Assembly: GCA_000002445.1 (NCBI GenBank)
Contig: CH464491.1
Coordinates: 2,816,001-2,880,000, forward strand
DNA from: Trypanosoma brucei
Lineage: Eukaryota
Direction: 5' to 3'
DNA: 64,000 nt
The notes below the pieces were generated by a model. The model saw only the letters and a list, made by a program, of their open reading frames with translations, made no database searches and had not been told where the DNA came from. This document shows, piece by piece, positions 20,050 to 60,030 of this stretch. The stretch's first letter is position 1; each line of letters opens with the position of its first letter. Made by a program: the position numbers and the translations under genes.

Positions 20050-20112
20050 ACAACAACGGCAACAGCAACAACAACAACAACAACAGTAACAATAATAATA
20101 ATAATATATTAT
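20050..20112. repeat. (CAA)n/(AAT)n trinucleotide repeat
   Basis: 'caacaacggcaacagcaacaacaacaacaacagtaacaataataataataat', within the 3-kb ORF-free region downstream of the PUF gene. Confidence 0.9.
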
Positions 20113-21546
20113 TATTATTATGTTATATTATATATTTTGTGTTATAAATGTTACTACTATTGTATAATATGTATACGTATGAAGAATATTTATACAATTA
20201 TATATCTCAATATGCTTTGAGTTTCCTTTCCTTACTTTCCCCCTCTATCCTTTCTTTTGTTTTTCCTTTCTATCAGTTTTTTTTTCTTGTATTATCCAAA
20301 ATTGGGGTACTCCTCTTTCATTTATTGATTTGTTAATGTATTTATGAACTTACAGTTTTTTTTTTAAAAAAATAAAAACGTTCATCTTTATATATTGAAA
20401 TATATCTTTATATATTTATTTATGTATTTTACCAGACAGTTTTGCCTCCTCTGCCCCCTCATTGTTTCAAGTACTGTTGTAATGCAATTTTGGTTTGCTT
20501 CCTTTTAACTTTTTTCCATAACAAATTTGATTTTTCTTTAACGCGAGAGAAACAAATATAATTTATAAATATGATATATAATTATCTGACTTAATTTGTT
20601 TTGTTTTGTTTTTTTAATGTTTCATATAGAAGGGGACACAACATTGATAAGTAAATAGATAAATAAATAATTTATTTCAAGTCTTTTGTTTGGTTTTTTT
20701 TTGAAAATGAAAAGCTATGAGTGAAACGGGGGGGGAAGCGGAGGGCTCACGGGACTATTTCGTCACTCCTTCTTTTTTTTTCAGTACAATTGTGACGAAA
20801 AGAAAAGAAAATGTAGGGAAGGGAGTCGGTAATATTAATATTTAAAAAAAAAAGGGAAATAGGAAATTTTTTTACCACTATTGTTGCTACTAATACCGGT
20901 GTTTGTTTGGTGCCAAACACCATCTGTTTCCATTTTAATTCTTTTGTGTTTATATGTTTTCTTTTTCTTTTGCCTCTTCTTTCCTACTTTATCCTCTTGT
21001 TTGTTTGACTTTTTTTTTCTCCCACTGATTCCTTCATGATCCACTTAGGCCCGTGAATTTGGACCGTTGTTTGTTGGCTCTTTTAGTTTGTTCGTTTGTT
21101 TGTTTGTTTGTTTTTGTTTTTGTTTTTGTTTTTTTTTGTTTTGCCTTTACTTTACTTTGCTTTGCTCGAGTGTTCCACCACAAGACGCCGCGCAGGTCGA
21201 CCAGCGCTGACAGTTTGCAGAAAAAAAAAGGAAATAAAATTTGTAAATAAAATAAAACAGAGTCACAAGAAGGAAACAAGGGGGAACGGCGTAGTGGAGG
21301 CAGCGGTATCACCGACTTAACCCACCTCTTCGTACTCACTTACTCCGTGTGTGTGTGTGTACGCGCGCGCTGTTGTATTTGTTTGTGTGTCTGGTTTATT
21401 AGAGGGGGAAACAAAAGGAAAGAAACCAACAAAAACAACAGGAAAACGCTGGAAGGCAAACTAACAGAGAGGCAACAGTAACAGTCAGATAAAAGAGGGG
21501 AAGGGAAAAGGAAAGTAGAAAGGAGGAATAACAAAAAAGGACAGGT

Positions 21547-41602: not shown

Positions 41603-43072
41603 ATGGCATGTGTGCATGTCCTGGTGGGGCAGTGTGGCAACCAACTTGGCGCACACTTTTTGACCGCACTAACAGATGAGGCACGCCGCTGCAGTGATGA
41701 AGATTATGCATCCCAAATTTCGGCTGATCATTTCCGTCCGGCACCAACACAAAAGGGAATCAGACGAGGAGGCGTAAGTAACGGCAACTCCGGTCATCAT
41801 GACGAACCACCACTACCGCGCTCCGTCATGATTGATATGGAACCAAAAGTGGTCGAATCCGTCGTGACAGGCGTTAACGACGGAGGCGCATTCCAGGTAC
41901 GAGCGGAGCAGTGCGTCACCCGGGACGAGGGAAGCGGGAACAACTGGGCGTTTGGATACTATGAGCAAGGAAGAAGTAGATGCGATGAGATCGTGGAATC
42001 CTTACGCCGGCAGAGTGAGGCGCGTGGGGCAGCTCATTCCTTTCATATCGTGCACAGTGTTGCAGGTGGAACCGGCTCGGGGGTGGGATGTTTGGTGTCC
42101 GACGCCATCCGGGTGGAGTTCCCACGAGCGCTTCTCCTCCACACGGCGGTGTGGCCGTTTGCCACCGGTGAGGTCGTAACGCAATGGTACAACTGCGTGT
42201 TGGCTATGAGTGCCCTACGCGAGAGTGCGGATGCTGTTTTCGTGGCGCATAATGATGACTTTGACGTCAGCGCGAGACCTTTGCAGAAGGCTGTCAACGG
42301 CCGAACAAGCGAAGTGAGCTTCGATACTATAAATCACGAAATTGGCCGCCTCCTCCTCGACCTCCATCTTCCGAAGAAATTGTACCCGGTTCCCTCAACT
42401 GCACCCGAGAAAAAACCTCACCCACAGTCAACGTTTCCGGCTTCTAGAACAACTTCCAGTACGGGTGCTATGGCGTCGCTTAGATGCGGAGGCCTCACAG
42501 ACGTCGTGGAAGCGGTTGCACTAGACCCAGCACTGAAGTTCTTCTCTGGTTTAGCCCTTCCCGTGACTCCACCTGACAACCGTGTCGTTGCGCCAGAGGC
42601 AACGTCGTGGTACCCGCTGTTGTGTGAAGCATCTCGTCGAACCAGTGAGTTATTCGTACCGGCACCGTCTGGTGACAATAACACTAGCAACAACCTTTCT
42701 ACCGCATTCATCGAGCAGCGGCCCCTCCTATGGAGTTTGCGTGGGCCAGCTGCATGCAGTGAAGGTCTCGCGCATCTGCGGGAAGTGCTCTCGAGAAGTA
42801 CGCCGACCCCTGACGGACGGGAGTTGTATGTACCGCCCTCTGCACTCCTTCTGCATGAGGAGCGGCTTCTCGGACGGAGAGCCCATGTTTCAGTTTTTGG
42901 TCCTACACATAACATCGGACTTCGACTAGCTTCCGCACTCGAGAGGGCTGAAGATTTACTTCGCGTCAGTGCGTACGTTCACCATTTTAGTCGATACGGA
43001 GTAGGTGAAGAGGAGCTGCGGGACGCCGTTGTGCGTATGTGGGACACTGCTGCCGCATACGGGGCGGCTTGA
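41603..43072 (+). CDS. divergent tubulin-superfamily protein (delta-tubulin-like)
   Basis: The N-terminal 'MACVHVLVGQCGNQLGAHFLTAL' carries the tubulin GQCGNQ motif. 'RSVMIDMEPKVV' parallels the tubulin 'RAVLVDLEPGTM'. 'GGTGSGVG' is the tubulin GGGTGSG nucleotide-binding loop. There are long insertions relative to alpha/beta tubulin. Confidence 0.65.
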   Translation: MACVHVLVGQCGNQLGAHFLTALTDEARRCSDEDYASQISADHFRPAPTQKGIRRGGVSNGNSGHHDEPPLPRSVMIDMEPKVVESVVTGVNDGGAFQVRAEQCVTRDEGSGNNWAFGYYEQGRSRCDEIVESLRRQSEARGAAHSFHIVHSVAGGTGSGVGCLVSDAIRVEFPRALLLHTAVWPFATGEVVTQWYNCVLAMSALRESADAVFVAHNDDFDVSARPLQKAVNGRTSEVSFDTINHEIGRLLLDLHLPKKLYPVPSTAPEKKPHPQSTFPASRTTSSTGAMASLRCGGLTDVVEAVALDPALKFFSGLALPVTPPDNRVVAPEATSWYPLLCEASRRTSELFVPAPSGDNNTSNNLSTAFIEQRPLLWSLRGPAACSEGLAHLREVLSRSTPTPDGRELYVPPSALLLHEERLLGRRAHVSVFGPTHNIGLRLASALERAEDLLRVSAYVHHFSRYGVGEEELRDAVVRMWDTAAAYGAA

Positions 43073-44595: not shown

Positions 44596-46204
44596 AAGCG
44601 GCAATCGTTGCATCCACATATTTTTCTCTTTGTTAGGTGTAGGTTGTTTCACTGTTGCTGTTGGTGTTGGTGTTGGTGTTGGTGTCTCTTCCTCCCTTCT
44701 TCGCAGTGATGGCTGTCCGATAATTTCCGCTCTCATTACTGTAAAGAAGTGGGTTTCTGCATCTGCATATATATATATATATATAAAAGGGCGGCAGAAA
44801 GAGCTAAGCGGAAAGGCATCACATACCTTTCTTTAAGGGGGGAGGGGGCTCACGCGAATGTTGGCAAGCAGGAGATACGTGTGAAAAAGAGCACACAGCT
44901 ACGTTTATACATGTATATTTATATAAATATGTGTTGCTTACATGCACAAAAGTGTACGGATTGAATTGCAGGAATAGCCGCGAAGGTAGGATTTAGGTGC
45001 GCGCCGGCCTCTAGAAACGGGAATTAGAGACGTTTCTTTTTTTTTTCAGTGAACAACGGTAAGGAACACGAATAAGATGCTCGCACGATGCGTGTGTGCT
45101 CGTGCGTCTAAATGCGTATGTATGCATATTTAACTGTGTAGCGTCGAAAGGAATGAAGAAAAAGGTAACGTGGGGCGAAGGTAAGAAAGTAATAATACCA
45201 CACTTTTATTCTTCCTCGATTTTGATGTCGTTGGTGTGCTTTGTTTGTTTGTTTGTCTTTTTTTTTTCTGTTGTTTGTTTGTTTTCCCATCTTAACTTTC
45301 TGACTTCACCAAATGGGGCCCACGTACGCTCCGCGACCAGACTTTCTTTTTTTTTTCTTTAGAGTTCGTTTAGGGCAGCGGTGGCGCCTCTTCATTTTTT
45401 TTTCTCCTCTTGTATTATTATTTTCCTTTTGTTTTCCTTGTCTGTGTGTTTTGTTTTTGTTTTATCTTTTTGGATTCATTCACTTGTTTCTCATTTCAGT
45501 TGTGCTTTGGTGGCGCCCACATCCACTGCAGGACGAGATGAGATGAATCATTAAAGTGAAAATGGTGAGGATTCGAGGAAAGGAGTTATAATAATAATAA
45601 TAATTGTTGTTATTATTATATTCCCAATGTTATTATTAATATTATTATTATTATTGTCATAATTATTATTGATGTTGTTTCCGGTTCAGGAAAAGGTAGC
45701 AATGAAAGGGATGTGAAAGAATGGTAGTAGAAGAGTGCTTCAGCTTGTTTTGTTTTGTTTTCTTTTCTTTTCTTTTTTTTTTTTGCTGTTTGCTCTCAAT
45801 ATATAATAGAGAGGGGAGGGGAGGGAAAAAAAAAAGAGGTAAAGAGGGAGGAACAACGAAAGAAAAAGGAATAACAAAATAAGGTGAGCAATTAATGAAC
45901 CACGGAATGAAGCAAAAAATAAAAAAACAAAGAAGTGAAAAGTGAAAAGGAAAGAAAAAGAAAAAATGACGTTCACGAAATTATTTACTCCATTGAGTGG
46001 GTCACATGATATATAAATGGATAAATGAAAAAGAGAGAAGTAAGGCGTAGCGATCAGCACATGCCTTCGTAGAGGTGCTGTGTTATATTAATTTATTCCC
46101 GCACAGCTCCACACAAGAACGGAGAGAAAAATGAAAAGAAAGGAAGTAGATAATAAAGAGGAAAAAGAAAATATTAATTTTGTGGTAAAAATAAATAAAT
46201 AAAT

Positions 46205-46207
<3 letters not shown>

Positions 46208-46246
<39 letters not shown>
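46208..46246. repeat. (TA)n microsatellite
   Basis: About 19 TA units inside the long ORF-free region. Confidence 0.95.
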
Positions 46247-46250
<4 letters not shown>

Positions 46251-46636
46251 TATAATTAAATAGAGGTGGGATCGGGGGGAAGAACAAAATGAATAAATTC
46301 CCAAAACATTTTCTTTTATTTACAATACTGCACTGCACAAATTTACAAAAATTATATATGTATTGATGTATATTTAATTATTCGCATCTGCAAGCAAAAA
46401 AAAAAATCACAATAAAGTGAAGAAGAAGAAGAAAAGTGGGCCAGGAAAAAAAGAAAAAGAAAAGAAAAGAAGGGTGGGAGAAACTGATGCCCATTTATTG
46501 TTGGAAATGTAGAAAGTAGAAAAGGACAAAGAAAAAAAAAAGGTAATATACATGTGTTTATATTTATATATGTCTTTAGGTACATTTTCTTTTCGCCCAC
46601 TTGTGTTCTTCCTTTCTTTCTTTATTTGCTGTGTTA

Positions 46637-46658
46637 TGTGTGTGTGTGTGTGTGTGTG
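46637..46658. repeat. (GT)n microsatellite
   Basis: GT run followed by (TTG)n. Confidence 0.9.
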
Positions 46659-46920
46659 ATTGTTGTGTTGTTGTTTGTTGTTGTTGTTTTTCCGGTTTCA
46701 CACTTATGCGTTTCCTGTCCCCTCCACTCAGTCCCTTTTTTTTCTGTGCGGTAACAAAAAAAAAAGAATAATGATTAAATAGTAAACAAATACAAAAAAG
46801 AAAAAAAAAGAAAGAAACTTACAATTGAGCAAAGACAAAAAAAACAAAAAATGGGGGATGCCAGTGAAAGGAGGTGGAAACTGAGAAATGAAACGAAAAA
46901 GAATTTGTTTTTTTTTTCAA

Positions 46921-46949
46921 TAACTAACTAATTAATTAATTAATTAATT
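46921..46949. repeat. (TTAA/TAAC)n simple repeat
   Basis: 'taactaactaattaattaattaattaatt'. Confidence 0.9.
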
Positions 46950-48009
46950 TTTTTTATTTGCTTTCGTGTAATAACGGAAGAGAAAGGAAACAAACAAAAA
47001 AAGAATGAGTTAATCAATCAATCACACACACATGCACACACATACACGCGGAAAAAGGGAAAGAAAGAGGGGGGAAAATGTGGAAATAATAATAATTTGT
47101 GATGATGACGACAATTACTATTGTTTATTACTAAAATCAACAACAACACGATGAACTAATGGATGAATGAATGGATGAATGAATGAAAAAGGAAAAAGAA
47201 AATGAAGGCGTGAGGAAAACACGTAACGGACAGAAATGTAATCGGAACCCACGAGTGAAGGTTTTGGGAAAGGAAAAAAAAATGAAAAAAATAAATAAAT
47301 TAGCACAAAAGGGGGGAAACGGAGATCACAAAAAAACTTATCATTTCTGTTTTTTTGTCATGTCACCAAAACACGAAGCGTGAGGAAATATTAACTCCTC
47401 TTTTTTTTCCCCCCTCCACCCCTTTTCTCTTTTGTGCATATGTGTTATATTATTTATTAATTCATTTACTGTTCCTCCTCTTCCTGTTTTATTCTACACA
47501 TTGTGCTCGTCCGTGTGTACTCTCGTCAACAGCTCACATCCACCATTTTCATCACCAGCCGGTTTCCTTTTTTTTTTTCCTTATCCCTTCGGTTCTTTTT
47601 GCTTGGTTTTATCTTTATTCCATTTTTTTTGTTTTGTTTTGTTTTCTTTTAGAGCAGCTCACCTGGACGCGTCTTCCAGTTTTCATTTATTCCTTTTAAA
47701 TCCCTTCGCCTTTTTTTTTGCTCGATTTTGTCCGTACTGAATTGAACTAGATTTTGCATTAATCCGTTGCTAAGATGAAAAAACAAAACAAAACGAAATA
47801 AGGAAGTGGATGTGATAGGGGAAAGGGGGAAAGGGGATCCAACGAGACGCGCATGGCAGCCGTAAACACAATTGAAGGGAGGTTGAATGGATAATAAATA
47901 ATAATAAAAAAAAGAAAGGAAGAAAGGAAGGAAGGAAAGGAAGTGCAAGTATAAGTGAGTGGGTGGGGAGAGGAAGGGAAAAAGAAAAAGAAAAAGGAAC
48001 AGTGAGGAT

Positions 48010-48024
<15 letters not shown>

Positions 48025-48042
<18 letters not shown>

Positions 48043-48079
48043 TGTGCGTGCGTGCGTGTGTGTGTGTGTGTGTGTGTGT
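48025..48079. repeat. compound (TA)n-(GTGC)n-(GT)n microsatellite
   Basis: 'atatatatatatatatatgtgcgtgcgtgcgtgtgtgtgtgtgtgtgtgtgt'. Confidence 0.95.
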
Positions 48080-49893
48080 TTGCGTAATAAACGCATGTCT
48101 CACCCAATTCGTTTCTTTTTTCTTTTTTTATATCCTTTTCTTACAATCTACGCGTAACACATGCCAAGGTGTTCATATACTCATTCATGTATTTACTCTT
48201 ATTTATATTGATTCGTTTATATGACCCACTCCAGCACTCCTTTCATCCTTTGAGTTTAACACGCTGCTCTTTGGAGTTCACCCTTTCTCTCTCCCCCCCC
48301 CCTCCCCCTCCCACACACTCACACACACCTTCTTTTTTTTTTAAATTTGCGTGTGTGGTTTCCTTTTATTTTCCTATATATATAAATAAATAATATCTTT
48401 GTTGACAATAACAGTCGGTGGGGTAGGTTTCCCGTTTTGTTCGGTATGAGAGGCGCCGCTGTAATGTCTGTTGCGCATTCTCTTTCTTTCTCTCTCATTT
48501 GCTCTCGCAACCACCAGGCTTTGTCGTCATTGTTGTATTTTTAGTTTAGTTTAGTTCTACGACGCTTTTTTTTTTCTGGTTTTTGTTTCATTACTGCACT
48601 CTGATATGTGTGCATTCGTATATGCGTGTAATGTTCGATACCGGACGCTGTTGATTTAAAGTGTATTTGTTATTTTTTTTTCTTTTAAAAAACCTGTAAT
48701 GTTCCTGGCACTTCCCGCATCCTAATGCCCTAACCCTGCCAATGATAGAATGTTGGCGGCAAGGTGTAGGGGAATGAAGAAATAAAGAAAAGGGAGAAGA
48801 AGAAGGAAAAGAAAAGAAAAGGAAAAGGAATAGAGGTCTACGGGGAAGGGAAAACACTCATATGTATATAAATAAACACAAACGAATATATTCATATTTA
48901 TTTACATGAAGGTGTATAGAGAGGGCTTTGGTCTGATCATTTGGAAGAAATGAATGAAAAGACGTTTTGAGAGGTATCCTTCTCCCTTTTCTTTTTTCGT
49001 TTAATTTCTTCTTCATAATTCTGTCGGCGTTCTCTCCTTCTCTTTTTTTCCGGTTCCTAACGCAGATACGCGCCATAATGAAACTGAATTAGCATCGGCT
49101 GCACATAAGGAACAACGGTGAAAGGAGGCGAGTAAGAATGAGTGAATGAGAAAGCAGAATGGAGGCGTTGTCACGCGGATCTGTGTAGACCTCATTCTTT
49201 CCTTTCTTTTGTTTTGTGTTTGTTTGTTGTTGGTGATGATGTGGTGACGTTCTGCTCCCTTTCGTTTGTTTCATCACCTGTTTTTGTCACGGTCACTTTC
49301 TCTCTCTTTTTTTTTTGCTTTTGGAAGACACCACCGCCAAATCACGCCGCAAATATGGCAGTTTTGTATCGAAAACACCCGGGCGCGAGAGAATGTAGAA
49401 CCCCTTCCCCACAGTAGGAATGAATTTGCAATATGTGGAAGAAGAAAATTTTCCTCGAAAGAGGAAGAGATATTGAGTAAAAGAATGCAGAGAGAAGGAG
49501 AGATAGAGGGAGAAAAGCGAAAAAGAAAAAGAAAAGGGCAGCTTCAGCCGGTCAATAACACTTTCGCACACCGCCACAAACCCACAAGCGCAGCACATAC
49601 ACGTGGCTTCAAGTATGTATAGGAAATGCGTGTGACGCTATTTTACAGTTGAAGCCCCGGGTGAGCGGCGGGGGAGGTATTTTCATCCTCTCCCTCTGCT
49701 GTTTTCTTTTTCATTTTTTCCTGTTATCTTTGCTTGTGCTTTACTATTTATAAACCCTCTATTACTTGACTCACCACCTATACTTCTACAGCAGTTGCCT
49801 CTGTTGTTGCCGTCGGTGGGCCCGCATACAGAAGAAACGCACTCGCCAACCGCAGTGTCAATCTCCTCACCATCTGTTGTTTGCCTTCCAGGC

Positions 49894-49927
<34 letters not shown>
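49894..49927. repeat. compound (TA)n-(GT)n microsatellite
   Basis: 'atatatatatatatatatatgtgtgtgtgtgtgt', about 150 nt upstream of the J-domain gene. Confidence 0.95.
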
Positions 49928-50078
49928 ATCAATACCCGTACGCATGTGCATTTGTGCACCGTTTAGATGTTACCTTTACCTCATTCCTTTTACTTCTGTT
50001 GGGTTGCCTTGCCTCATCCTCACTCTTTAGCGGGGCGGCTACTGAAGCAGAGGGTACCGTAGTACATATCATAGCCGA

Positions 50079-51558: not shown

Positions 51559-54500
51559 ATGAGTGCACAGTTCAAAAAAGAAAATATTAAAGGGGAGGAA
51601 GGGGAGGGAAGGAAGGGAAAACCATTGCACAAGATGGCTCCCGGTGGCTGCGATGCGATCTTGCAGGAGGCGCTATTGTTGGGTTCATATGCTGATTTCT
51701 GGAAACTTGCCACCGGTTATACAAAGGCGCTATGCAATGTATACGTCGCCCCAAACCCCTATCCAACTCCTGGTGGAGGAAATGCAGCCGATGGACACAA
51801 CCCGAACTCAGCTACCCAAAATATGGTAAAAGTGACGACGACGGTACCTTGTAGCCTTAGGACCTTTGCCACGTTCATCACAGCGCCACGAAGCGTGCGA
51901 TACTGCGAGGACAACGTCATGTTTTGCGATATCATTGAAAGAGATAACAAGACAAAGTTGTTTCACACCGCATACGCAGGCGATCCTCCATGTGATGTGG
52001 TTGCCGTGCATATAACGGCGGCGTACAAAGTGCCGGAGAACACCACCGAAAACAATCCCTTGTGCAAGTTTGTGGCAAGCCTTCGTGACGATAAACGCCG
52101 GGGCCACGTGCCACAACCCTCGTCAACGATATTCGTTTACGCTATGAAGAGTGCTGAGCACCCCAAGACACCTCCTTCGCCGCCGTACGTGCGTATGCGC
52201 TTTCACTTATCTGCCTTTATCGCCTATGAAATACCAGGGCCACTCGTTCGAGTGGTGTTCGTTCACGCACCAGGAGATCGTACTCCAAAGATGGTTGACC
52301 GGTGCATAACAAAAATGGTCTGTGTGCGGAACTTATGCCAAATGCTTGAGTGGCTTAACACAGGTGGCCCTCTCACGGAACCTGTCATCTGGGAGAATCA
52401 GCGGCCACAAGAAACGCCAAATGCACACTCCGTTGGGGCCGAAAACACACGCGAGCCCAATCCTCTCGTTGAGGAGCCATCAGATGTAGTGTTACAAGGG
52501 GACAACCCATCCTCTGCTCCAGGCCGTGTATTTCAAACATTGTTTGCCCTGCATGCTTCAGCCGCGTGGCGTTTGGTCCTTCAACATGAAGGATGCACGG
52601 TGGAGGAATGCGAAGCACGATGTTGCTTTCCTGCACCGGCTTTTCTAAAGGCTTACCGTTTCGCGACAACTATCGCATGTTCTCTGGATATTTTCCGCCG
52701 ATTAGTGAGCGACCCGATGCAGTTGCACAGGTACGACCCGAGTGTAGAGAAAGTAGAGCTCCTCCACTCACAAAAGGGTGAGGATACCGTTCACATACAT
52801 TTCAAGCAACTGTCTCATTCTGCTCCCAAGCAGGATGCCTGCATTCTAACATCTAACGCACTCTTGCAACCCGACGAGGCACACCGATGGCGTTTATACC
52901 AGCTGACAGACAACATAAATGTTGTTTACGTGCAGAATGGTATTCAAAGCACTGAAATTCCTGCTGCTGGCGCGTGCGACCGACAGGTAGTGTATGCAAT
53001 GGGATACGTCGCCATCCCATCAGTGAAGCGACAACCCACGGGAGCTGGGGATGGCAATGAAGGCAGTGAGGCGCTGCGGGTCTACCATGTCGTCTGCGTG
53101 GACAACAACACTGCTTCATTCGCGGATAAGCAGCTTGTGACTATTCGTCAGCATTTTTTCCGCCTTACTGGAATACGAAATTTGTGCGATGAAGCGAAGA
53201 GCAAACCTCCTACCTGTTCTTTACCTCCTCACACAACTCGGGATGTTAATGATTTCTTCGAGAGCGGTACGTTAGCAGGATTTACAGAGGTGGAAACGCT
53301 TGAAGACGCCTCCCTTGAAAGAACAAGCAGCACGAATAATGTACGTAGACAGCTCGATTTAGTCGATGGGATGGAAGGCTACACCAGCCACGCGACTGCG
53401 CATGTGGACACCATGATGAACTCTTCTTCATTGGAGAAGCTTCACCAGTTTCTCTTGCACTTTGCACCCCATTATTGTATAGAGCACAAACAAAGTGAGC
53501 TCGACAACAAACTTGTTCCAGCAGCTGCTGCACTGCAACCCTCACCATTCACCGAGCAACAGCAAATATCCCCTTCAGTTTGGCAAGCACACGCGCCAAC
53601 ACCCGATCAGCAGAAACAGGAAGTGCAAACTGCTCAACTGGTGCAGCGTGGAAAAGTAAGTGCACCTCCAGCTATTCAGCAGAGTGGAGGAAAGGCAGCT
53701 TTGACATGGGACACCAGTGTGGAAGAGGTAGTGCCTGACAAGCAGAAACAGGAAGTGCAAACTGCTCAACTGGTGCAGCGTGGAAAAGTAAGTGCACCTC
53801 CAGCTATTCAGCAGATTGGAGGAAAGGCAGCTTTGACATGGGACACCAGTGTGGAAGAGGTAGTGCCTGACAAGCAGAAACAGGAAGTGCAAACTGCTCA
53901 ACTGGTGCAGCGTGGAAAAGTAAGTGCACCTCCAGCTATTCAGCAGATTGGAGGAAAGGCAGCTTTGACATGGGACACCAGTGTGGAAGAGGTAGTGCCT
54001 GACAAGCAGAAACAGGAAGTGCAAACTGCTCAACTGGTGCAATGTGGAAAAGTAAGTGCACCTCCAGCTATTCAGCAGATTGGAGGAAAGGCAGCTTTGA
54101 CATGGGACACCAGTGTGGAAGAGGTAGTGCCTGACAAGCAGAAACAGGAAGTGCAAACTGCTCAACTGGTGCAACGTGGAAAAGTAAGTGCACCTCCAGC
54201 TATTCAGCAGAGTGGAGGAAAGGCAGCTTTGACATGGGACACCAGTGTGGAAGAGGTAGTGCCTGACAAGCAGAAACAGGAAGTGCAAACTGCTCAACTG
54301 GTGCAACGTGGAAAAGTAAGTGCACCTCCAGCTATTCAGCAGAGTGGAGGAAAGGCAGCTTTGACATGGGACACCAGTGTGGAAGAGGTAGTGCCTGACA
54401 AGCAGAAACAGGAAGTGCAAACTGCTCAACTGGTGCAACGTGGAAAAGTAAGTGCACCTCCAGCTATTCAGCAGATTGGAGGAAAGGCAGCTTTGACATG

Positions 54501-57500
54501 GGACACCAGTGTGGAAGAGGTAGTGCCTGACAAGCAGAAACAGGAAGTGCAAACTGCTCAACTGGTGCAGCGTGGAAAAGTAAGTGCACCTCCAGCTATT
54601 CAGCAGATTGGAGGAAAGGCAGCTTTGACATGGGACACCAGTGTGGAAGAGGTAGTGCCTGACAAGCAGAAACAGGAAGTGCAAACTGCTCAACTGGTGC
54701 AGCGTGGAAAAGTAAGTGCACCTCCAGCTATTCAGCAGATTGGAGGAAAGGCAGCTTTGACATGGGACACCAGTGTGGAAGAGGTAGTGCCTGACAAGCA
54801 GAAACAGGAAGTGCAAACTGCTCAACTGGTGCAACGTGGAAAAGTAAGTGCACCTCCAGCTATTCAGCAGATTGGAGGAAAGGCAGCTTTGACATGGGAC
54901 ACCAGTGTGGAAGAGGTAGTGCCTGACAAGCAGAAACAGGAAGTGCAAACTGCTCAACTGGTGCAACGTGGAAAAGTAAGTGCACCTCCAGCTATTCAGC
55001 AGAGTGGAGGAAAGGCAGCTTTGACATGGGACACCAGTGTGGAAGAGGTAGTGCCTGACAAGCAGAAACAGGAAGTGCAAACTGCTCAACTGGTGCAACG
55101 TGGAAAAGTAAGTGCACCTCCAGCTATTCAGCAGAGTGGAGGAAAGGCAGCTTTGACATGGGACACCAGTGTGGAAGAGGTAGTGCCTGACAAGCAGAAA
55201 CAGGAAGTGCAAACTGCTCAACTGGTGCAACGTGGAAAAGTAAGTGCACCTCCAGCTATTCAGCAGAGTGGAGGAAAGGCAGCTTTGACATGGGACACCA
55301 GTGTGGAAGAGGTAGTGCCTGACAAGCAGAAACAGGAAGTGCAAACTGCTCAACTGGTGCAATGTGGAAAAGTAAGTGCACCTCCAGCTATTCAGCAGAG
55401 TGGAGGAAAGGCAGCTTTGACATGGGACACCAGTGTGGAAGAGGTAGTGCCTGACAAGCAGAAACAGGAAGTGCAAACTGCTCAACTGGTGCAATGTGGA
55501 AAAGTAAGTGCACCTCCAGCTATTCAGCAGAGTGGAGGAAAGGCAGCTTTGACATGGGACACCAGTGTGGAAGAGGTAGTGCCTGACAAGCAGAAACAGG
55601 AAGTGCAAACTGCTCAACTGGTGCAATGTGGAAAAGTAAGTGCACCTCCAGCTATTCAGCAGATTGGAGGAAAGGCAGCTTTGACATGGGACACCAGTGT
55701 GGAAGAGGTAGTGCCTGACAAGCAGAAACAGGAAGTGCAAACTGCTCAACTGGTGCAACGTGGAAAAGTAAGTGCACCTCCAGCTATTCAGCAGAGTGGA
55801 GGAAAGGCAGCTTTGACATGGGACACCAGTGTGGAAGAGGTAGTGCCTGACAAGCAGAAACAGGAAGTGCAAACTGCTCAACTGGTGCAACGTGGAAAAG
55901 TAAGTGCACCTCCAGCTATTCAGCAGAGTGAAAAAGGGGCTATCGACAGAAAAGAAAAGAACGTTCATATGAAGAATTTTATGCAGGCGATTCACACTGA
56001 AGGCGAGCCCGTTCATAGGAGAAGAGATGATGAAAGACTGGGGTTGCAACCATTACAGAGAAAGAAAGGTTTCCAATCCATCCCAACCAATCTTGAAGAG
56101 GAAGCATCCCCAGTACAGGTGATCGGTGAAGAATCAAAACGCAATAGTGGGGAACCGCAACCAGTTGGGGGGCAAGGGGATTGCTTGGCGCGAGCAGTGC
56201 GGGAGGGACAGGAGAAATTAACACGACTTACGGGGGGTTGGTGTAAAGGACGCATAGAGAAAACTTCTGCTTTCGGAGAAAAAGATAGCCCCGTACAAGA
56301 AGTTCAGGTAAAGGAGAATATCCCGCAAGTAACCTGTGGCTTGAGTGTGTGGCCCACGCCAGATGCATTGAAAGTTAGGAGGGAAGGAATGAGCGTCTTG
56401 AAATTGTCACAGCGGCTGGAGCTTCGCCCCGCTCGGCAGGAACCACGGCGGCAGGAAGAGTTGATATGGCCCATGAAGGGAGGATGGCAAGGATCTTCGG
56501 GTTCAGTAAGTGATGGGAATGAAGGATTGTTATTGCCGATGGGATCGCGGTCTGTGGATACAGATGACGTATGGGAAGAGCGCGTTAAATTATCTGACGG
56601 AACGTTCGGCCGGAAGGTGAACAACAAAATTCAGGTAAACGTCCGGGCGTGTCGTAACATGCCAGCGGCAACGCAAAAAAAACATATGCTGTCTATTCAG
56701 ATCAGCACATCTTCTACGGAGGCGCAAACATGGTTGGTACCTCTGACCCTCAATCCCATCTTCCCCCATCAAACAATTTTACTGGACGAACCAGAAGATG
56801 ACACGGTCAACGTTACAGCGATAGTAAAAACTGAAGATGATCGCATGAAGCGACTGGGGGAAGCAGTTGTTTCGCTGCGCTATTTGCATGTGTTAGATTC
56901 GTATACCCGCTGGATTTCGCTGATATGTAATGTAGGCACAAGCGATGCTTTCGAATGTGGTGACGTTTGCATTACTTTCCGTCGCGGTACAGAAGAAGGA
57001 CCCAATGGTGTCGTCTCAATTAATGGAAAGCAATGCGAACAGCAGCAACTGCAGTGGGGGGAAGCCGAAAGGACACAAGAAGAGGAGAAACTGCGGCGTT
57101 ATGTCCGTGATGTGCTTGTATCCGCGGGGAATGCAAACCTCCACTTGTTGGAGTGGTTAGTAGGGAACTGCTACCGTAAAACACCAGGGGAAATAGATGC
57201 GTTTATTAGGCGGTATAGGAAAGATGATACAATAATGCTAACTGTGTTTGAGGTGTGCGGACTTAGAACGGAAGTCGGGGTCCCACTACTGCGTCCGGTG
57301 CCTTGCCACGTTTTGGTTGAAACAAGCAGAGGATCGTGTACAACATCCCCCGTAAACCTTCAAGGACAAGCAGCTCCGCTGAACATGGTGTTTCACCTGG
57401 TAATAGGGGTGAACGAACCCATTCGTCTCATCGTATTTACCGGCGACACCGCGGTTGGTGAAACGGTTATTACCACTGCCCAAGATGGCACGCGCACTCG

Positions 57501-60030
57501 CGTGTTGGTTTCGCGGGCCGGCACGGAGGAAGCGGTACCTTGTGGTACGATCACTGTAGGTACGAGGCGCGGTAGCGTATCTGAATTGACTGAAAGCCCC
57601 AAACCACTTCGAGTGGAAGTAAATGAAGAGAACAGCAAGCGCATGGCGTACCTACACCACATATTATGGATGAACGCCCGAAGCTCACTTCACAAGCTGG
57701 ATGTAATTGCCGCTTCCCCACTGGAGTCGGGCCGTCTACTGGAAAAGTTTGGACCGACAGCGAAGTGGTACGATCTTCGAGTTTCCTTGAGGCACTGGAG
57801 GCCCACATCTGCTGCGTGGGATAGCCCAATAGTTGACAATACACTTGGCACTCACAAGAGAGAAAAAGACGGCGATGAGTTGCTGCAACATGTACAAACG
57901 GTATACCGCAGGGTATTCGCTGTGGTTCACATTGGGTTGCAGTACCATAAAACTTTTGAGGTCCGTACCGACTGTGCTGGTGAAGTGCACTTCAATGAAA
58001 CCTTCACTTTCAGTGGTGTTTGCCCTCGGCGGGATGAGGTTTTTGTGTCTGTCATCGGGAAGGGTCTCACTGGCACCGAGGATCATGATCTGGGAGTAAC
58101 CGTCCTTTCCATGAAATCACTGAAGTTACAACAGCGAACCCACATGACTGTTCCGTTGGTGCGCCAAGCGGGAACTCGTGGTGCTCGCTTCCAAGGATCA
58201 CTGTACTTGGAACTGTTTGCGGTTAACTTTGACGGTGTTGCCGCTAACGACTACGAGGCAGAAATGTGTCGGCCTTCTATTCGGAGCATTCTTTACCACC
58301 ACGCACCTAGAGAGTTGCATAAGGCAGAGTGCTTCCTTGGTAGCTACGCAAGCCGTGAAAAGGACTGCCTACGAGAGCTACGAAAAACCTATGGGCCGGA
58401 CATTCTCAAACTACCCATGGCGATACGGCTAATGAGCCTGAACCAACTGACACCTTATCCTAACAGTTACTTGAAAGTGTACCTCAATGATACCCCAGTG
58501 ATACGCACTGAGAAGCTATCCACCGATGATCCTATTTTATTCGACCCAGAAGACAGCAAAAGTAGGGCAAGGGTACTCGTTGATGATGTCTATGACGTTA
58601 GGTTACGGTTCAAGGTGAAGCAAACGCGATTTTTACTAACAAAGACTCTTTGCACGGGTGATTTTTCCTTACGAGGTATGGTGGTATCGCAGGAGGGCGT
58701 ATACTGGATCCCTTTGGTTGACAGTGAGGGTGTGAGTGTCGGGAATCTCTGTGTTGAACTGAAGTCAAGTGCTTTTGTCTACAATGATACTGTGAAAAGG
58801 GCTAAAGATTTTGTGGAGGACGACGTCGTGTCGTTAATTCGGAGGTACAGACCGTCTAAGGTGCCCATCATGCATATGATAATGGAAAAAGTCTCAAATC
58901 GGGAGGCAGCCCACTCCGAAATCAGAAGGGAGGTCGTTACCGAACCGGTTGCAGCTACAGTGTTTATATCTGTAGAACTCCTTTCCATTCATCGTGTGTT
59001 TTTCGAGCAAACCGAGGAAGACGATCAGCAGGTGTGGCCAGAAGGTGAGACGGAATATGTTGTGACAGCAAAATACGGTGGCGATGAAAGTAGTACTACA
59101 ACCAAAAACTTCACACCACAAGGGAACAGCAGCACCATTCGCCTAGACGTGCGCACCTTTCGCGAACGGAAAGCACACAAGCTCATCATCACTGTCCGAC
59201 GTCAGCGCACCCTTCCACCGCCTTGCCCTGCGAAATCGTCGGAAGCGCAGAACGGCAAGATTCCGCGTTTTGGTCCATTTTGTAAAGCCACCCCTGTTGT
59301 GTCGAAGCAAAGGCCGCGTGTTATAATGCCCCAGCCTCCCTCCCTTTTACATGAACCTGAATATGTAGGTTGCGCAGTCATCTCTCTCCGTGCGCTTTTC
59401 ACCCCTTTGCTCTACAGCACCGGGGAGCTCGTGACGGTACCGCTGCTTTACCTTCCACCGAACGCGAATGGAGGGCCGGTTGTACCGGACGGCCGGGACC
59501 ATACCGGCAGTGGTGTACATTCTGAAGGGGAAGTTGTCGGAAACATTGCGTTCAGGGTGCGCCTTCCAGCGTATGAGCAGATCCCTTCATGGTTGCAATT
59601 CGACGCCACAACCCTCGAAAAAGAAATTAAGCTGGACCGAGCGGCCATTCGATACTATGAGGAGCGCATTCGCAATATTTTAGCTGAGCACAAATCACAC
59701 TGTTTGTGGAATATGCACTACAGATTGTATGAAAAATACGTTGCCAGTGGCCACTGGCATCGACTGCTGCGTGGCTGGAGAAATGCGTTGCTGCGGCAAT
59801 TCCCCTCAGCAAATAACAGCAACGACGTTCCAACATCTTCCATGTGGTACGCCCCCTCGACAGCATCCGATCGCGACTTGAGGAGCGATAATATGAACAG
59901 CATCTTGGAAAGACTGAAAGGAGAGTTTAGCAGTGACGACAGTTTGATGGGCGATGTCGCGGAAACAGAAATGGCAGGGGGAGAAAACTCGATAGAAACA
60001 GGAAGCGGGAGCGAAAGCGAAAGTGACTAA
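51559..60030 (+). CDS. giant repeat-containing protein (2823 aa) with 44-aa tandem repeats and multiple C2-like domains
   Basis: A single uninterrupted ORF. Its central part holds 17.6 copies of 'DKQKQEVQTAQLVQ(R/C)GKVSAPPAIQQ(S/I)GGKAALTWDTSVEEVVP'. C-terminal regions have C2-like beta-sandwich signatures, for example 'KIQVNVRACRNMP...DEPEDDTVNVTAIVKTEDD...RWISLI' and 'LKVYLNDTPVIRTEKL...DVRLRF'. The start codon is uncertain; a Met at 'MAPGGCDA' is an alternative. Confidence 0.7.
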   Translation: MSAQFKKENIKGEEGEGRKGKPLHKMAPGGCDAILQEALLLGSYADFWKLATGYTKALCNVYVAPNPYPTPGGGNAADGHNPNSATQNMVKVTTTVPCSLRTFATFITAPRSVRYCEDNVMFCDIIERDNKTKLFHTAYAGDPPCDVVAVHITAAYKVPENTTENNPLCKFVASLRDDKRRGHVPQPSSTIFVYAMKSAEHPKTPPSPPYVRMRFHLSAFIAYEIPGPLVRVVFVHAPGDRTPKMVDRCITKMVCVRNLCQMLEWLNTGGPLTEPVIWENQRPQETPNAHSVGAENTREPNPLVEEPSDVVLQGDNPSSAPGRVFQTLFALHASAAWRLVLQHEGCTVEECEARCCFPAPAFLKAYRFATTIACSLDIFRRLVSDPMQLHRYDPSVEKVELLHSQKGEDTVHIHFKQLSHSAPKQDACILTSNALLQPDEAHRWRLYQLTDNINVVYVQNGIQSTEIPAAGACDRQVVYAMGYVAIPSVKRQPTGAGDGNEGSEALRVYHVVCVDNNTASFADKQLVTIRQHFFRLTGIRNLCDEAKSKPPTCSLPPHTTRDVNDFFESGTLAGFTEVETLEDASLERTSSTNNVRRQLDLVDGMEGYTSHATAHVDTMMNSSSLEKLHQFLLHFAPHYCIEHKQSELDNKLVPAAAALQPSPFTEQQQISPSVWQAHAPTPDQQKQEVQTAQLVQRGKVSAPPAIQQSGGKAALTWDTSVEEVVPDKQKQEVQTAQLVQRGKVSAPPAIQQIGGKAALTWDTSVEEVVPDKQKQEVQTAQLVQRGKVSAPPAIQQIGGKAALTWDTSVEEVVPDKQKQEVQTAQLVQCGKVSAPPAIQQIGGKAALTWDTSVEEVVPDKQKQEVQTAQLVQRGKVSAPPAIQQSGGKAALTWDTSVEEVVPDKQKQEVQTAQLVQRGKVSAPPAIQQSGGKAALTWDTSVEEVVPDKQKQEVQTAQLVQRGKVSAPPAIQQIGGKAALTWDTSVEEVVPDKQKQEVQTAQLVQRGKVSAPPAIQQIGGKAALTWDTSVEEVVPDKQKQEVQTAQLVQRGKVSAPPAIQQIGGKAALTWDTSVEEVVPDKQKQEVQTAQLVQRGKVSAPPAIQQIGGKAALTWDTSVEEVVPDKQKQEVQTAQLVQRGKVSAPPAIQQSGGKAALTWDTSVEEVVPDKQKQEVQTAQLVQRGKVSAPPAIQQSGGKAALTWDTSVEEVVPDKQKQEVQTAQLVQRGKVSAPPAIQQSGGKAALTWDTSVEEVVPDKQKQEVQTAQLVQCGKVSAPPAIQQSGGKAALTWDTSVEEVVPDKQKQEVQTAQLVQCGKVSAPPAIQQSGGKAALTWDTSVEEVVPDKQKQEVQTAQLVQCGKVSAPPAIQQIGGKAALTWDTSVEEVVPDKQKQEVQTAQLVQRGKVSAPPAIQQSGGKAALTWDTSVEEVVPDKQKQEVQTAQLVQRGKVSAPPAIQQSEKGAIDRKEKNVHMKNFMQAIHTEGEPVHRRRDDERLGLQPLQRKKGFQSIPTNLEEEASPVQVIGEESKRNSGEPQPVGGQGDCLARAVREGQEKLTRLTGGWCKGRIEKTSAFGEKDSPVQEVQVKENIPQVTCGLSVWPTPDALKVRREGMSVLKLSQRLELRPARQEPRRQEELIWPMKGGWQGSSGSVSDGNEGLLLPMGSRSVDTDDVWEERVKLSDGTFGRKVNNKIQVNVRACRNMPAATQKKHMLSIQISTSSTEAQTWLVPLTLNPIFPHQTILLDEPEDDTVNVTAIVKTEDDRMKRLGEAVVSLRYLHVLDSYTRWISLICNVGTSDAFECGDVCITFRRGTEEGPNGVVSINGKQCEQQQLQWGEAERTQEEEKLRRYVRDVLVSAGNANLHLLEWLVGNCYRKTPGEIDAFIRRYRKDDTIMLTVFEVCGLRTEVGVPLLRPVPCHVLVETSRGSCTTSPVNLQGQAAPLNMVFHLVIGVNEPIRLIVFTGDTAVGETVITTAQDGTRTRVLVSRAGTEEAVPCGTITVGTRRGSVSELTESPKPLRVEVNEENSKRMAYLHHILWMNARSSLHKLDVIAASPLESGRLLEKFGPTAKWYDLRVSLRHWRPTSAAWDSPIVDNTLGTHKREKDGDELLQHVQTVYRRVFAVVHIGLQYHKTFEVRTDCAGEVHFNETFTFSGVCPRRDEVFVSVIGKGLTGTEDHDLGVTVLSMKSLKLQQRTHMTVPLVRQAGTRGARFQGSLYLELFAVNFDGVAANDYEAEMCRPSIRSILYHHAPRELHKAECFLGSYASREKDCLRELRKTYGPDILKLPMAIRLMSLNQLTPYPNSYLKVYLNDTPVIRTEKLSTDDPILFDPEDSKSRARVLVDDVYDVRLRFKVKQTRFLLTKTLCTGDFSLRGMVVSQEGVYWIPLVDSEGVSVGNLCVELKSSAFVYNDTVKRAKDFVEDDVVSLIRRYRPSKVPIMHMIMEKVSNREAAHSEIRREVVTEPVAATVFISVELLSIHRVFFEQTEEDDQQVWPEGETEYVVTAKYGGDESSTTTKNFTPQGNSSTIRLDVRTFRERKAHKLIITVRRQRTLPPPCPAKSSEAQNGKIPRFGPFCKATPVVSKQRPRVIMPQPPSLLHEPEYVGCAVISLRALFTPLLYSTGELVTVPLLYLPPNANGGPVVPDGRDHTGSGVHSEGEVVGNIAFRVRLPAYEQIPSWLQFDATTLEKEIKLDRAAIRYYEERIRNILAEHKSHCLWNMHYRLYEKYVASGHWHRLLRGWRNALLRQFPSANNSNDVPTSSMWYAPSTASDRDLRSDNMNSILERLKGEFSSDDSLMGDVAETEMAGGENSIETGSGSESESD
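53608..55930 (+). repeat. 132-bp in-frame tandem repeat array (~17.6 units) inside giant CDS
   Basis: Units are identical except at three nucleotide positions: cag/caa, cgt/tgt and agt/att. A mirrored 824-aa artefact ORF appears on the minus strand across the array. Confidence 0.95.

What the first reader, a model, noticed from the sequence alone, without database searches (positions are those of the whole stretch)
53608..55930. Seventeen and a half near-identical 132-bp coding tandem repeats inside a 2823-aa ORF
The units encode 44 aa, 'DKQKQEVQTAQLVQ(R/C)GKVSAPPAIQQ(S/I)GGKAALTWDTSVEEVVP'. They differ at only three nucleotide positions (cag/caa, cgt/tgt, agt/att). The variants occur in blocks: the Cys variant at units 4 and 14–16, the Ile variant at units 2–4, 7–10 and 16. 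This pattern is typical of unequal crossover and concerted evolution. The R/C polymorphism would place a variable number of cysteines in an otherwise Cys-free repeat. Arrays this homogeneous are often collapsed in assemblies, so the true copy number may be higher. Repeat proteins of this kind in trypanosomatids are often cytoskeleton-associated and immunodominant.
Basis: partly seen in the sequence, partly recalled or inferred. Interest (0 to 1): 0.6.

Follow-up and report, generated by a model that had tools for sequence, protein, structure and literature searches.

The report
Repeat linker in trypanosome START–C2 protein
The 17.6 near-identical 44-residue repeats are real; they form a variable-length middle section of an unstudied Trypanosoma brucei protein with two lipid-binding START domains at one end and five membrane-binding C2 modules at the other, which is ordinary for trypanosome repeats, though this domain combination was not found described.

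Summary
The array is 17.6 head-to-tail copies of 132 bp at 53608-55930, in frame in a 2823-aa ORF (51559-60030).

The window is T. brucei chromosome 11: a published tagging primer for Tb927.11.10930 matches it exactly.

The array lies between two N-terminal START-fold domains and five C-terminal modules, each a C2 domain plus a three-helix bundle.

The same array, with the same boundaries, has 8.6 units in T. b. gambiense. It has 10.6 units in T. b. equiperdum, where deletions at the polymorphic sites split the gene.

The T. congolense orthologue has about 12.5 units of a related 34-aa repeat at the same place. T. cruzi and T. rangeli have none.

So the array is a lineage-specific, concertedly evolving, copy-number-unstable linker.

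Best reading (inferred, about 0.45): a flexible spacer between the lipid-binding and membrane-binding ends. Cytoskeleton binding and antigenicity were not tested.

It may be Tb11.01.2730, a bilobe protein; this is unverified.

This is an ordinary kind of feature, with a moderately interesting architecture.

The parts
51559..60030 (+). Whole ORF: 2823 aa, about 312 kDa, with no convincing transmembrane segment
   Evidence: Orthologues are T. b. gambiense CBH18108.1 (2427 aa), T. congolense TCIL3000_11_11660 and T. cruzi PWV07412.1.
51640..52368 (+). START-fold domain 1 (aa about 28-270)
52531..53214 (+). START-like domain 2 (aa about 325-552)
   Evidence: Same order of secondary-structure elements as domain 1, but low pLDDT of 40-60. 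hhalign of domain 1 against domain 2 gives probability 94.7%, E 6e-08, 191 columns. Sub-threshold Polyketide_cyc2 hit, E 0.15.
53215..53607 (+). Poorly conserved linker before the array
   Evidence: pLDDT below 30. For the stretch after the conserved EVETLED motif, identity to T. congolense is 26% of the longer sequence. It is not a degenerate repeat unit.
53608..55930 (+). 17.6 x 132-bp (44-aa) tandem array: the finding
   Evidence: Purine-rich (A 0.32, G 0.31), GC3 0.39 against 0.50 in the rest of the gene. Unit pI 6.9, GRAVY -0.62, Q/V/A/K-rich.
55931..56619 (+). Linker after the array, containing a conserved VWPTPDALKVR motif at 56347-56379
   Evidence: Identity to T. congolense is 20% up to the motif, which is itself identical between the two. 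A similar WPTP is present in T. rangeli.
56620..57222 (+). Module 1: C2 beta-sandwich (aa 1688-1811) plus three-helix bundle (aa 1826-1888)
57223..57756 (+). Module 2: C2 plus three-helix bundle
57763..58398 (+). Module 3: C2 (with an insert) plus three-helix bundle
58405..58941 (+). Module 4: C2 (the Pfam C2 hit) plus three-helix bundle
   Evidence: Pfam PF00168, 31.7-33.1 bits against a cut-off of 22. Also.
58942..59823 (+). Module 5: C2 with long disordered inserts plus a C-terminal helical bundle
53575..56049 (-). Antisense 824-aa ORF: a by-product of the stop-free reverse frame of the unit, not a gene
   Evidence: Its translation is itself a perfect repeat, and it ends just outside the array.

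Best explanation
The array is a genuine in-frame coding tandem repeat in a large T. brucei chromosome 11 gene that is uncharacterised, or at most barely characterised.

Architecture: the protein has two START-fold (lipid-binding) domains at the N-terminus, then a poorly conserved linker holding the array, then five modules of a C2 domain plus a three-helix bundle.

SHOWN:
- The array is homogenised within T. brucei and diverged between species.
- It sits at a linker where orthologues carry a related 34-aa array (T. congolense), acidic 21-22-aa repeats after the START region (a relative of unknown source), or nothing (T. cruzi, T. rangeli).
- Its unit number differs by whole units between T. 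brucei assemblies.
- Variants are reshuffled between units.

INFERRED mechanism of evolution: unequal sister-chromatid or allelic crossover, together with short-tract gene conversion, expand, contract and homogenise the array.

INFERRED function:
- The repeat is a hydrophilic, near-neutral, probably flexible spacer about 380-775 residues long.
- It separates the START heads from the C2 modules that would hold the protein on a membrane or scaffold.
- Its length, more than its exact sequence, would set the reach of the START end.
- This is the logic of lipid-transfer proteins that pair a lipid-binding domain with membrane-targeting domains through a long linker.

The modest conservation of a core motif (LVQxG..KVS..QQ..L.W) between T. 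brucei and T. congolense leaves room for a sequence-specific partner.
For: Array and reading frame.

Identity of the locus:
- The TrypTag primer for Tb927.11.10930 matches window 42990-43035 with 0 mismatches.
- Relatives at 99% identity are T. b. equiperdum and T. b. gambiense proteins.

Copy number:
- The window has 17.6 units, T. b. equiperdum 10.6 and T. b. gambiense 8.6, all ending at the same partial unit.
- The 396-aa length difference from the gambiense protein is exactly 9 units.

Variants:
- The R/C and S/I variants are shared across subspecies. A Q/H variant is absent from the window.
- The four-gamete condition is met at site pairs 39/76 and 38/76.

Orthologues:
- T. congolense has about 12.5 x 34-aa units at the same position. 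The unit-to-unit alignment scores 56 against 30 +/- 9 for shuffles, with 38 of 2000 shuffles reaching it.
- Best rotated unit identity is 14 residues (about 42%). The flanking linkers are 20-26% identical and the folded regions 47-53%.
- T. cruzi and T. rangeli have no repeats.

Domains:
- Five beta-sandwich plus three-helix units in a model with mean pLDDT 77.

Other properties:
- No convincing transmembrane segment; the hydrophobic maximum is a C2 strand.
- Unit composition and charge.
Against: - Nothing here measures the structure of the repeat.
- Neither lipid binding by the START domains nor membrane binding by the C2 domains has been tested. By eye, the canonical Ca2+-binding aspartates look absent from C2-1 and C2-4.
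- Pfam's START model does not match.
- T. cruzi does without any repeat, so the array cannot be needed for the protein's core function.
- The differences in copy number may be partly or wholly due to assembly. The equiperdum array carries clear consensus errors, and DAL972 is an older assembly.
- Within the array there are 3 non-synonymous sites to 1 synonymous, so there is no sign of purifying selection on the unit at this timescale.
Confidence: 0.45

Rival explanations
1. The repeats form a multivalent cytoskeleton-binding array, binding microtubules or hook-complex components. This would resemble the 38-aa repeats of MARP-1/2 or the repeat region of WCB. The protein would then link a membrane (through C2 and START) to a cytoskeletal structure.
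For: - A core motif is kept between T. brucei and T. congolense units, more than in the surrounding linkers.
- If the gene is Tb11.01.2730, it was recovered in the detergent-insoluble pellet of a TbPLK BioID and localised to the bilobe by endogenous tagging.
- Many large repeat proteins appear in that same list: p197, MARP1, CC2D and Tb927.7.3330.
Against: - The unit is near-neutral (pI 6.9), whereas known microtubule-binding repeats are typically basic (own knowledge).
- No similarity to any other protein's repeats was found.
- The T. cruzi and T. rangeli orthologues lack the array.
- The Tb11.01.2730 identification rests only on the order of gene identifiers.
Confidence: 0.2
2. The array is a selectively neutral passenger. 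The inter-domain linker tolerates any low-complexity insertion, and slippage or unequal crossover has inflated one there. Neither its length nor its sequence has a function.
For: - The array is absent from T. cruzi and T. rangeli, and a different, acidic repeat follows the START region in another relative (P0001).
- Copy number ranges from 8.6 to 17.6 among very close relatives.
- The ratio of non-synonymous to synonymous variants is about the neutral 3:1.
Against: - The array has been maintained in frame at the same site since before the T. brucei / T. congolense split, with a recognisable core.
- GC3 and purine skew differ from the rest of the gene, but the frame is intact over 2.3 kb.
Confidence: 0.2
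3. The main biological significance of the array is as an immunodominant B-cell epitope, as with other tandem-repeat antigens of trypanosomatids. It might be a diagnostic antigen or an immune decoy released from lysed parasites.
For: - The Tandem Repeats Finder score is very high (4525), which is the criterion used in tandem-repeat antigen screens (own knowledge of work by Goto and colleagues; not retrieved here).
- The unit is hydrophilic.
Against: - No serological evidence was found.
- The protein has no signal peptide or transmembrane segment.
- Antigenicity would be a consequence of the array, not a cellular mechanism.
Confidence: 0.08
4. The array, or its length in this window, is an assembly artefact.
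For: - Homogeneous 132-bp units are hard to assemble.
- The equiperdum assembly shows polishing deletions at the variable sites, and the three assemblies disagree on unit number.
Against: - The array is present with identical boundaries and shared variants in three independent assemblies, and in related form in T. congolense.
- The window copy has no indels and an intact frame.
- So only the exact number of units can be an artefact.
Confidence: 0.05

Closest known systems
p197 of the T. brucei tripartite attachment complex (Tb927.10.15750)
   Same: A very large T. brucei protein whose centre is a long run of near-identical repeats between distinct terminal domains. The repeats act as a molecular spacer whose length sets a distance (own knowledge). 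p197 is listed as a basal-body BioID hit.
   Different: The p197 units are about 175 aa and predicted helical, with no sequence similarity to this unit. Its end domains bind the basal body and the mitochondrial outer membrane, not START and C2. A spacer role is inferred here, not demonstrated.
MARP-1/2 (38-aa repeats) and WCB (C2 domain plus repeats) of the subpellicular corset
   Same: T. brucei proteins with long homogeneous repeat arrays. WCB also combines a C2 domain with a repeat region (own knowledge). MARP1 and WCB appear.
   Different: There is no sequence similarity. Those repeats bind microtubules, which was not tested here. This unit is near-neutral. Those proteins have no START domains.
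ClpGM6 and FLAM3, flagellum attachment zone proteins with repeat cores
   Same: The central repeat core causes broken gene models. The TrypTag paper notes that ClpGM6 is split into Tb927.11.1090 and Tb927.11.1100. Here the T. b. equiperdum gene is split into DPX39_110085500 and DPX39_110085600.
   Different: The domains differ (calpain-like, CLU) and so do the repeat units. A flagellum attachment zone location is not shown for this protein.
Extended synaptotagmins and tricalbins, including T. brucei E-Syt
   Different: The lipid module here is START, not SMP. There is no transmembrane hairpin. There are five C2 domains, each with a three-helix bundle. E-Syts have no repeat array.
START-domain lipid-transfer proteins with targeting domains (CERT/STARD11, STARD3/MLN64)
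   Different: Sequence identity is only 11-16% and Pfam START is not matched. The START domain is tandemly duplicated. Targeting would be by C2 rather than PH or FFAT. The ligand is unknown.

Membership tests
Coding tandem repeat under concerted evolution | Head-to-tail copies whose period is a multiple of 3, keeping the frame open | tested here: met
   Period 132, 17.6 copies, 0% indels, inside the 2823-aa ORF.
Coding tandem repeat under concerted evolution | Units more alike within a species than between species at the orthologous site | tested here: met
   99% DNA identity within T. brucei, against about 42% protein identity to the T. congolense 34-aa unit at the same position.
Coding tandem repeat under concerted evolution | Copy number changes by whole units between strains | tested here: inconclusive
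   17.6, 10.6 and 8.6 units with the same boundaries, but assembly collapse cannot be separated from real variation. The equiperdum array has polishing errors.
Coding tandem repeat under concerted evolution | Evidence of exchange between units | tested here: met
   All four allele combinations occur at site pairs 39/76 and 38/76. Variants lie in blocks.
START / Bet v 1-like lipid-binding domain | Helix-grip fold | tested here: met
   [not shown]
START / Bet v 1-like lipid-binding domain | Match to the family sequence model | tested here: not met
   No Pfam START hit at E<=1. The only hit is Polyketide_cyc2 at E 0.15 for domain 2. UniProt nevertheless names relatives' fragments 'START domain-containing protein'.
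START / Bet v 1-like lipid-binding domain | Hydrophobic ligand cavity and lipid binding | not testable with these tools
   Needs a high-confidence model or an experiment.
C2 domain | Match to the family sequence model and beta-sandwich fold | tested here: met
   [not shown]
C2 domain | Ca2+-coordinating aspartates in loops 1 and 3 | not tested
   By eye, C2-1 and C2-4 lack the DPY and DxD motifs. No formal alignment was made.
Extended synaptotagmin / tricalbin | SMP domain and N-terminal membrane hairpin | tested here: not met
   No SMP hit in Pfam. The N-terminal fold is START. No transmembrane segment.
MARP-like microtubule-binding repeats | Sequence similarity to known microtubule-binding repeat units | tested here: not met
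   A three-unit query found nothing at E<=0.01. That index also missed known close relatives, so the negative is weak.
MARP-like microtubule-binding repeats | Binding to microtubules or localisation to the corset | not testable with these tools
   The only lead is the unverified link to Tb11.01.2730 (bilobe).
Trypanosomatid tandem-repeat B-cell antigens | Recognition by sera from infected hosts | not testable with these tools
   No paper was found for this unit.

The most novel reading that the evidence does not exclude
The array is a tunable molecular ruler in a kinetoplastid-specific lipid-transfer tether. The five modules of C2 plus helix bundle would fix the protein at one membrane or at the hook complex near the flagellar pocket neck. 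The two START heads would swing on a 380-775-residue repeat leash to a second membrane. Changes in unit number between T. brucei lineages, and the gain of the array in salivarian trypanosomes, would then alter the distance over which lipid is exchanged.
Probability: 0.12. Interest if true: 0.6.

Novelty: new member of a known kind. Interest (0 to 1): 0.35.

Why it matters
Near-identical coding repeats are common in trypanosome genomes, so the array itself is not surprising.

Three things give it some value:
- It marks a protein with a domain combination that the literature searches did not find described: tandem START domains, a repeat linker, and five C2 domains each with a three-helix bundle. 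This is a candidate non-vesicular lipid-transfer or tethering protein in an organism whose contact-site machinery is poorly known.
- The natural series of 0, 8.6, 10.6, about 12.5 and 17.6 units across species and subspecies offers ready-made length variants for testing whether linker length matters.
- It is a concrete example of a repeat that breaks gene models. The gene is split in T. b. equiperdum, and the protein is 396 aa shorter in T. b. gambiense. That matters for anyone using those annotations, designing tagging or RNAi constructs, or interpreting proteomics.

Tried and rejected
Ideas rejected:
- That the sequences flanking the array are decayed repeat units. Local alignment scores fall below the shuffle means, 19 against 22 and 23 against 25. 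DNA identity upstream is 39/132.
- That the antisense 824-aa ORF is a gene.
- That there is a membrane anchor. The hydrophobicity maximum is a C2 strand.
- That the C-terminal region has recent internal repeats. Self-BLAST found none. The five modules are related only at the level of fold and motif.

Searches that found nothing:
- The word-indexed protein search found nothing for the C-terminal half or for three repeat units. It found only one relative for the N-terminus. The exhaustive representative search was needed.
- A profile of the three-helix motif found nothing significant among solved structures.
- Rfam and tRNA scans of the window were empty.
- Exact look-ups of the window protein and of a neighbouring protein were not on record.
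- The afdb50 fold library was unavailable.

Attempts to get a gene identifier and localisation:
- Full-text searches for the peptide, for '44 amino acid repeat' and for START+C2+Trypanosoma gave nothing specific.
- Searches for Tb927.11.10940-10980 gave nothing.
- The TrypTag tables are held only in part and lack this gene.
- Supplements of the papers that mention Tb11.01.2730 are not held or do not contain it.
- One guessed PMC id was not held.


Full report
**1. The observation**

Tandem Repeats Finder reports one outstanding array in the region: 53609-55930, period 132, 17.6 copies, 99% matches, no indels, score 4525. It lies in frame inside the ORF 51559-60030 (+), 2823 aa.

Cutting the array from 53608 gives 17 complete units and 79 nt of an 18th. 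Units differ only at three offsets:
- offset 38, G/A, silent (cag/caa);
- offset 39, C/T, Arg/Cys;
- offset 76, G/T, Ser/Ile.

Cys is in units 4 and 14-16. Ile is in units 2-4, 7-10 and 16.

The right-hand boundary is abrupt: identity stops at 55930. Neither flank is a decayed unit, because alignment scores are below the shuffle means. The unit occurs nowhere else in the window.

The 824-aa antisense ORF 53575-56049 is simply the stop-free reverse frame of the unit.

**2. Where the window comes from**

All ORFs of 250 aa or more that have recognisable domains are on the + strand. They have no introns and are separated by AT-rich spacers rich in simple repeats. They encode eukaryotic proteins: kinesin, VHS, PUF, NOB1, CFAP58, a divergent tubulin, DnaJ, a 2OG oxygenase and RWD/UPF0029. 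This is a trypanosomatid polycistron.

An exhaustive search with the C-terminal 1199 aa found 45 relatives. Cluster look-up named them:
- T. brucei equiperdum DPX39_110085600, 99% identity;
- T. b. gambiense DAL972 CBH18108.1 / XP_011780372.1 (UniProt D0A8V7);
- T. congolense TCIL3000_11_11660, 52%;
- T. cruzi PWV07412.1, 39%;
- T. rangeli, T. grayi and T. conorhini proteins.

The published TrypTag C-terminal tagging primer for Tb927.11.10930 matches window 42990-43035 without a mismatch. So the window is T. brucei TREU927-like chromosome 11, and the divergent tubulin ORF 41603-43072 is Tb927.11.10930.

The target gene is two or three gene models downstream, about Tb927.11.10950-10970 by counting. 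This is not verified. No paper in the library mentions those identifiers.

**3. The protein around the array**

*N-terminal 683 aa.*
- Pfam finds nothing here.
- An AF2 model built on a five-sequence alignment has modest confidence: mean pLDDT 46, with 60-83 over aa about 30-268. It shows the same order of elements twice: three strands, two helices, several strands and a long C-terminal helix.
- The two halves are homologous to each other (hhalign probability 94.7%, E 6e-08, 191 columns).
- UniProt's automatic names for N-terminal fragments of relatives are 'START domain-containing protein'.
- Pfam's START model is still not matched. Domain 2 gives only a sub-threshold Polyketide_cyc2 hit.

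*C-terminal 1096 aa.*
- These were modelled with a 21-sequence alignment at mean pLDDT 77. The model shows five beta-sandwiches, each followed by a three-helix bundle.
- Pfam C2 is above its cut-off (31.7-33.1 bits against 22) and is found in 18 of 21 relatives.
- A family profile hits ferlins, Munc13 and synaptotagmins among solved structures.
- The five helical bundles share a motif (R..L....P..LH+L; alignment A3). The motif matches nothing in the PDB by sequence and has no Pfam family.

There is no convincing transmembrane segment. The hydrophobic maximum is a strand of C2-5.

The overall architecture is START-START, linker, 17.6 x 44 aa, linker, then five modules of C2 plus three-helix bundle. 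The protein is about 312 kDa.

**4. The array in relatives**

I fetched the loci of two other T. brucei subspecies.

*T. b. gambiense DAL972.* It has 8.6 units, all 132 bp and in frame. The protein is 2427 aa, exactly 9 units (396 aa) shorter than the window protein.

*T. b. equiperdum.* It has 10.6 units. Units 5 and 7-10 carry 1-2-bp deletions located exactly at the polymorphic offsets 39, 71 and 76. This is the signature of consensus polishing over heterogeneous repeat copies. It breaks the gene into two annotated proteins, DPX39_110085500 (N-terminal) and DPX39_110085600 (C-terminal).

All three arrays start and end at the same positions. The R/C and S/I variants are shared. A further Q/H variant (offset 71, always with Ile) is present in gambiense and equiperdum but not in the window. 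The silent offset-38 variant is seen only in the window.

Within the window, all four allele combinations occur for site pairs 39/76 and 38/76. So variants have been reshuffled between units by crossover or conversion.

*T. congolense.* It carries about 12.5 units of 34 aa (DNDKGILVQAGQQLKVSSTKGTQQCEDGTTLAWG) at the same position.
- Its unit aligns with the T. brucei unit through a core LVQxG..KVS..QQ..L.W. The score is 56 against 30 +/- 9 for shuffled units, reached by 38 of 2000 shuffles.
- The best rotation gives 14 identities, about 42%. The flanking linkers are 20-26% identical and the START and C2 regions 47-53%.

*Other relatives.*
- T. cruzi (1749 aa) and T. rangeli have no repeats and only a short linker.
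- A relative of unknown source (P0001) has acidic 21-22-aa repeats after the START region.
- A GC-rich relative (P0019) has no tandem repeat.

So an array existed before the T. brucei / T. congolense split. It has since been homogenised separately in each lineage, and the unit length changed. It is not part of the conserved core of the protein.

**5. What it most likely is and does**

*Shown:* a real, in-frame, concertedly evolving array in a variable inter-domain linker, with unit number differing between assemblies.

*Inferred mechanism of evolution:* unequal crossover and short-tract conversion.

*Inferred function:*
- The unit is hydrophilic (GRAVY -0.62), near-neutral (pI 6.9) and rich in Q, A, K, G, S and P. 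It also has six Val and one conserved Trp.
- The simplest reading is a flexible spacer of 380-775 residues between a lipid-binding head and membrane-binding modules. Length would matter more than sequence. I put this at about 0.45.

*Rivals:*
- A cytoskeleton- or partner-binding multivalent array (0.2). The conserved core and the possible bilobe link favour it. The neutral charge and the absence of the array from T. cruzi argue against it.
- A neutral passenger in a tolerant linker (0.2).
- An antigen (0.08, untested).
- An artefact (0.05, for the exact copy number only).

**6. A lead on identity**

The old-style identifier Tb11.01.2730 lies between Tb11.01.2695 (= Tb927.11.10930) and Tb11.01.2780 (= Tb927.11.10990).

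McAllaster et al. 2015 list Tb11.01.2730 as a TbPLK BioID hit in whole-cell lysate and the detergent pellet. They localised it to the bilobe by endogenous tagging (PMC4551316). A review repeats it as a candidate hook-complex or centrin-arm component (PMC4695855). A peptide from it was not a CK1.2 substrate (PMC12222847).

It is the only gene in the retrieved stretches of the McAllaster table that still has an old identifier. That would fit a gene model changed by a revised repeat. The order of identifiers fits the target gene. However, I could not obtain any sequence, size or peptide for Tb11.01.2730. This is a lead, not a result.

**7. Comparison with what is known, and novelty**

The array belongs to the familiar class of homogeneous coding repeats in trypanosome proteins, such as p197, MARPs, ClpGM6, FLAM3 and WCB. 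ClpGM6 is likewise split by its repeats in the reference annotation (PMC9981465).

The array has no sequence similarity to other proteins' repeats that I could detect. That index is weak, because it also missed true relatives.

The protein is not an extended synaptotagmin: it has no SMP domain and no membrane hairpin. It resembles that class, and CERT-type START proteins, in pairing a lipid-binding domain with membrane-targeting domains.

The sequence is already in public genomes as a 'hypothetical protein'. Apart from the possible Tb11.01.2730 mentions, I found no study of it.

Verdict: a new member of a known kind. Interest is 0.35, mainly for the START-repeat-C2 architecture and the natural series of linker lengths.

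Noticed in passing
L001 9976-11364 (T. b. equiperdum CM010682.1): Units 5 and 7-10 of the array carry 1-2-bp deletions exactly at the polymorphic offsets 39, 71 and 76. This looks like a long-read polishing artefact. It splits the gene into DPX39_110085500 and DPX39_110085600.
   Followed up: yes
window 41603-43072 (+): This divergent tubulin-family ORF has its best PDB matches to beta-tubulins at only E 5e-32 over the N-terminal half. It is Tb927.11.10930: the TrypTag primer matches 42990-43035 exactly. TrypTag tables list it among basal-body proteins ('not G1') and, in one tagging entry, as endocytic / weak reticulated cytoplasm.
   Followed up: partly
window 44600-50070: A 5.4-kb AT-rich stretch (GC 0.33-0.43) full of simple repeats ((AT)n, (TG)n, TTTG, purine-rich 12-24-mers). 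It has no ORF over 152 aa and lies between a PSP1-like ORF and the DnaJ gene. It could be an unusually long UTR or intergenic region. A second AT-rich stretch lies at about 18500-21500.
   Followed up: no
window 57034-57222, 57616-57756, 58240-58398, 58795-58941, 59629-59823: Each of the five C2 domains is followed by a three-helix bundle of about 45-60 aa with a shared R..L....P..LH+L motif. The motif is conserved in relatives across Trypanosoma. It has no Pfam family and no PDB sequence match, so it may be an undescribed accessory domain of C2.
   Followed up: partly
[not shown]
   Followed up: no
window 56347-56379: The motif VWPTPDALKVR in the otherwise poorly conserved linker after the array is identical in T. 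congolense, and a WPTP is kept in T. rangeli. It may be a short linear motif, for example a proline-directed phosphosite or a docking site.
   Followed up: no
P0003 aa 678-1102 (T. congolense TCIL3000_11_11660): Every T. congolense unit has an invariant Cys (QQC/QPC), at a different position from the polymorphic R/C site of T. brucei. The T. congolense array is also more heterogeneous, with at least five variable sites in 34 aa.
   Followed up: partly
T. conorhini Tco025E_05766 and Tco025E_05767 (P0007, P0013): Two adjacent genes encode multi-C2 relatives that lack the START region. This indicates a wider kinetoplastid family of proteins built from C2-plus-helix modules. 45 relatives were found in the library.
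   Followed up: no
window 53575-56049 (-): This 824-aa antisense ORF is produced only because the reverse frame of the unit has no stop codon. It could be miscalled as a gene by ORF-based annotation.
   Followed up: yes
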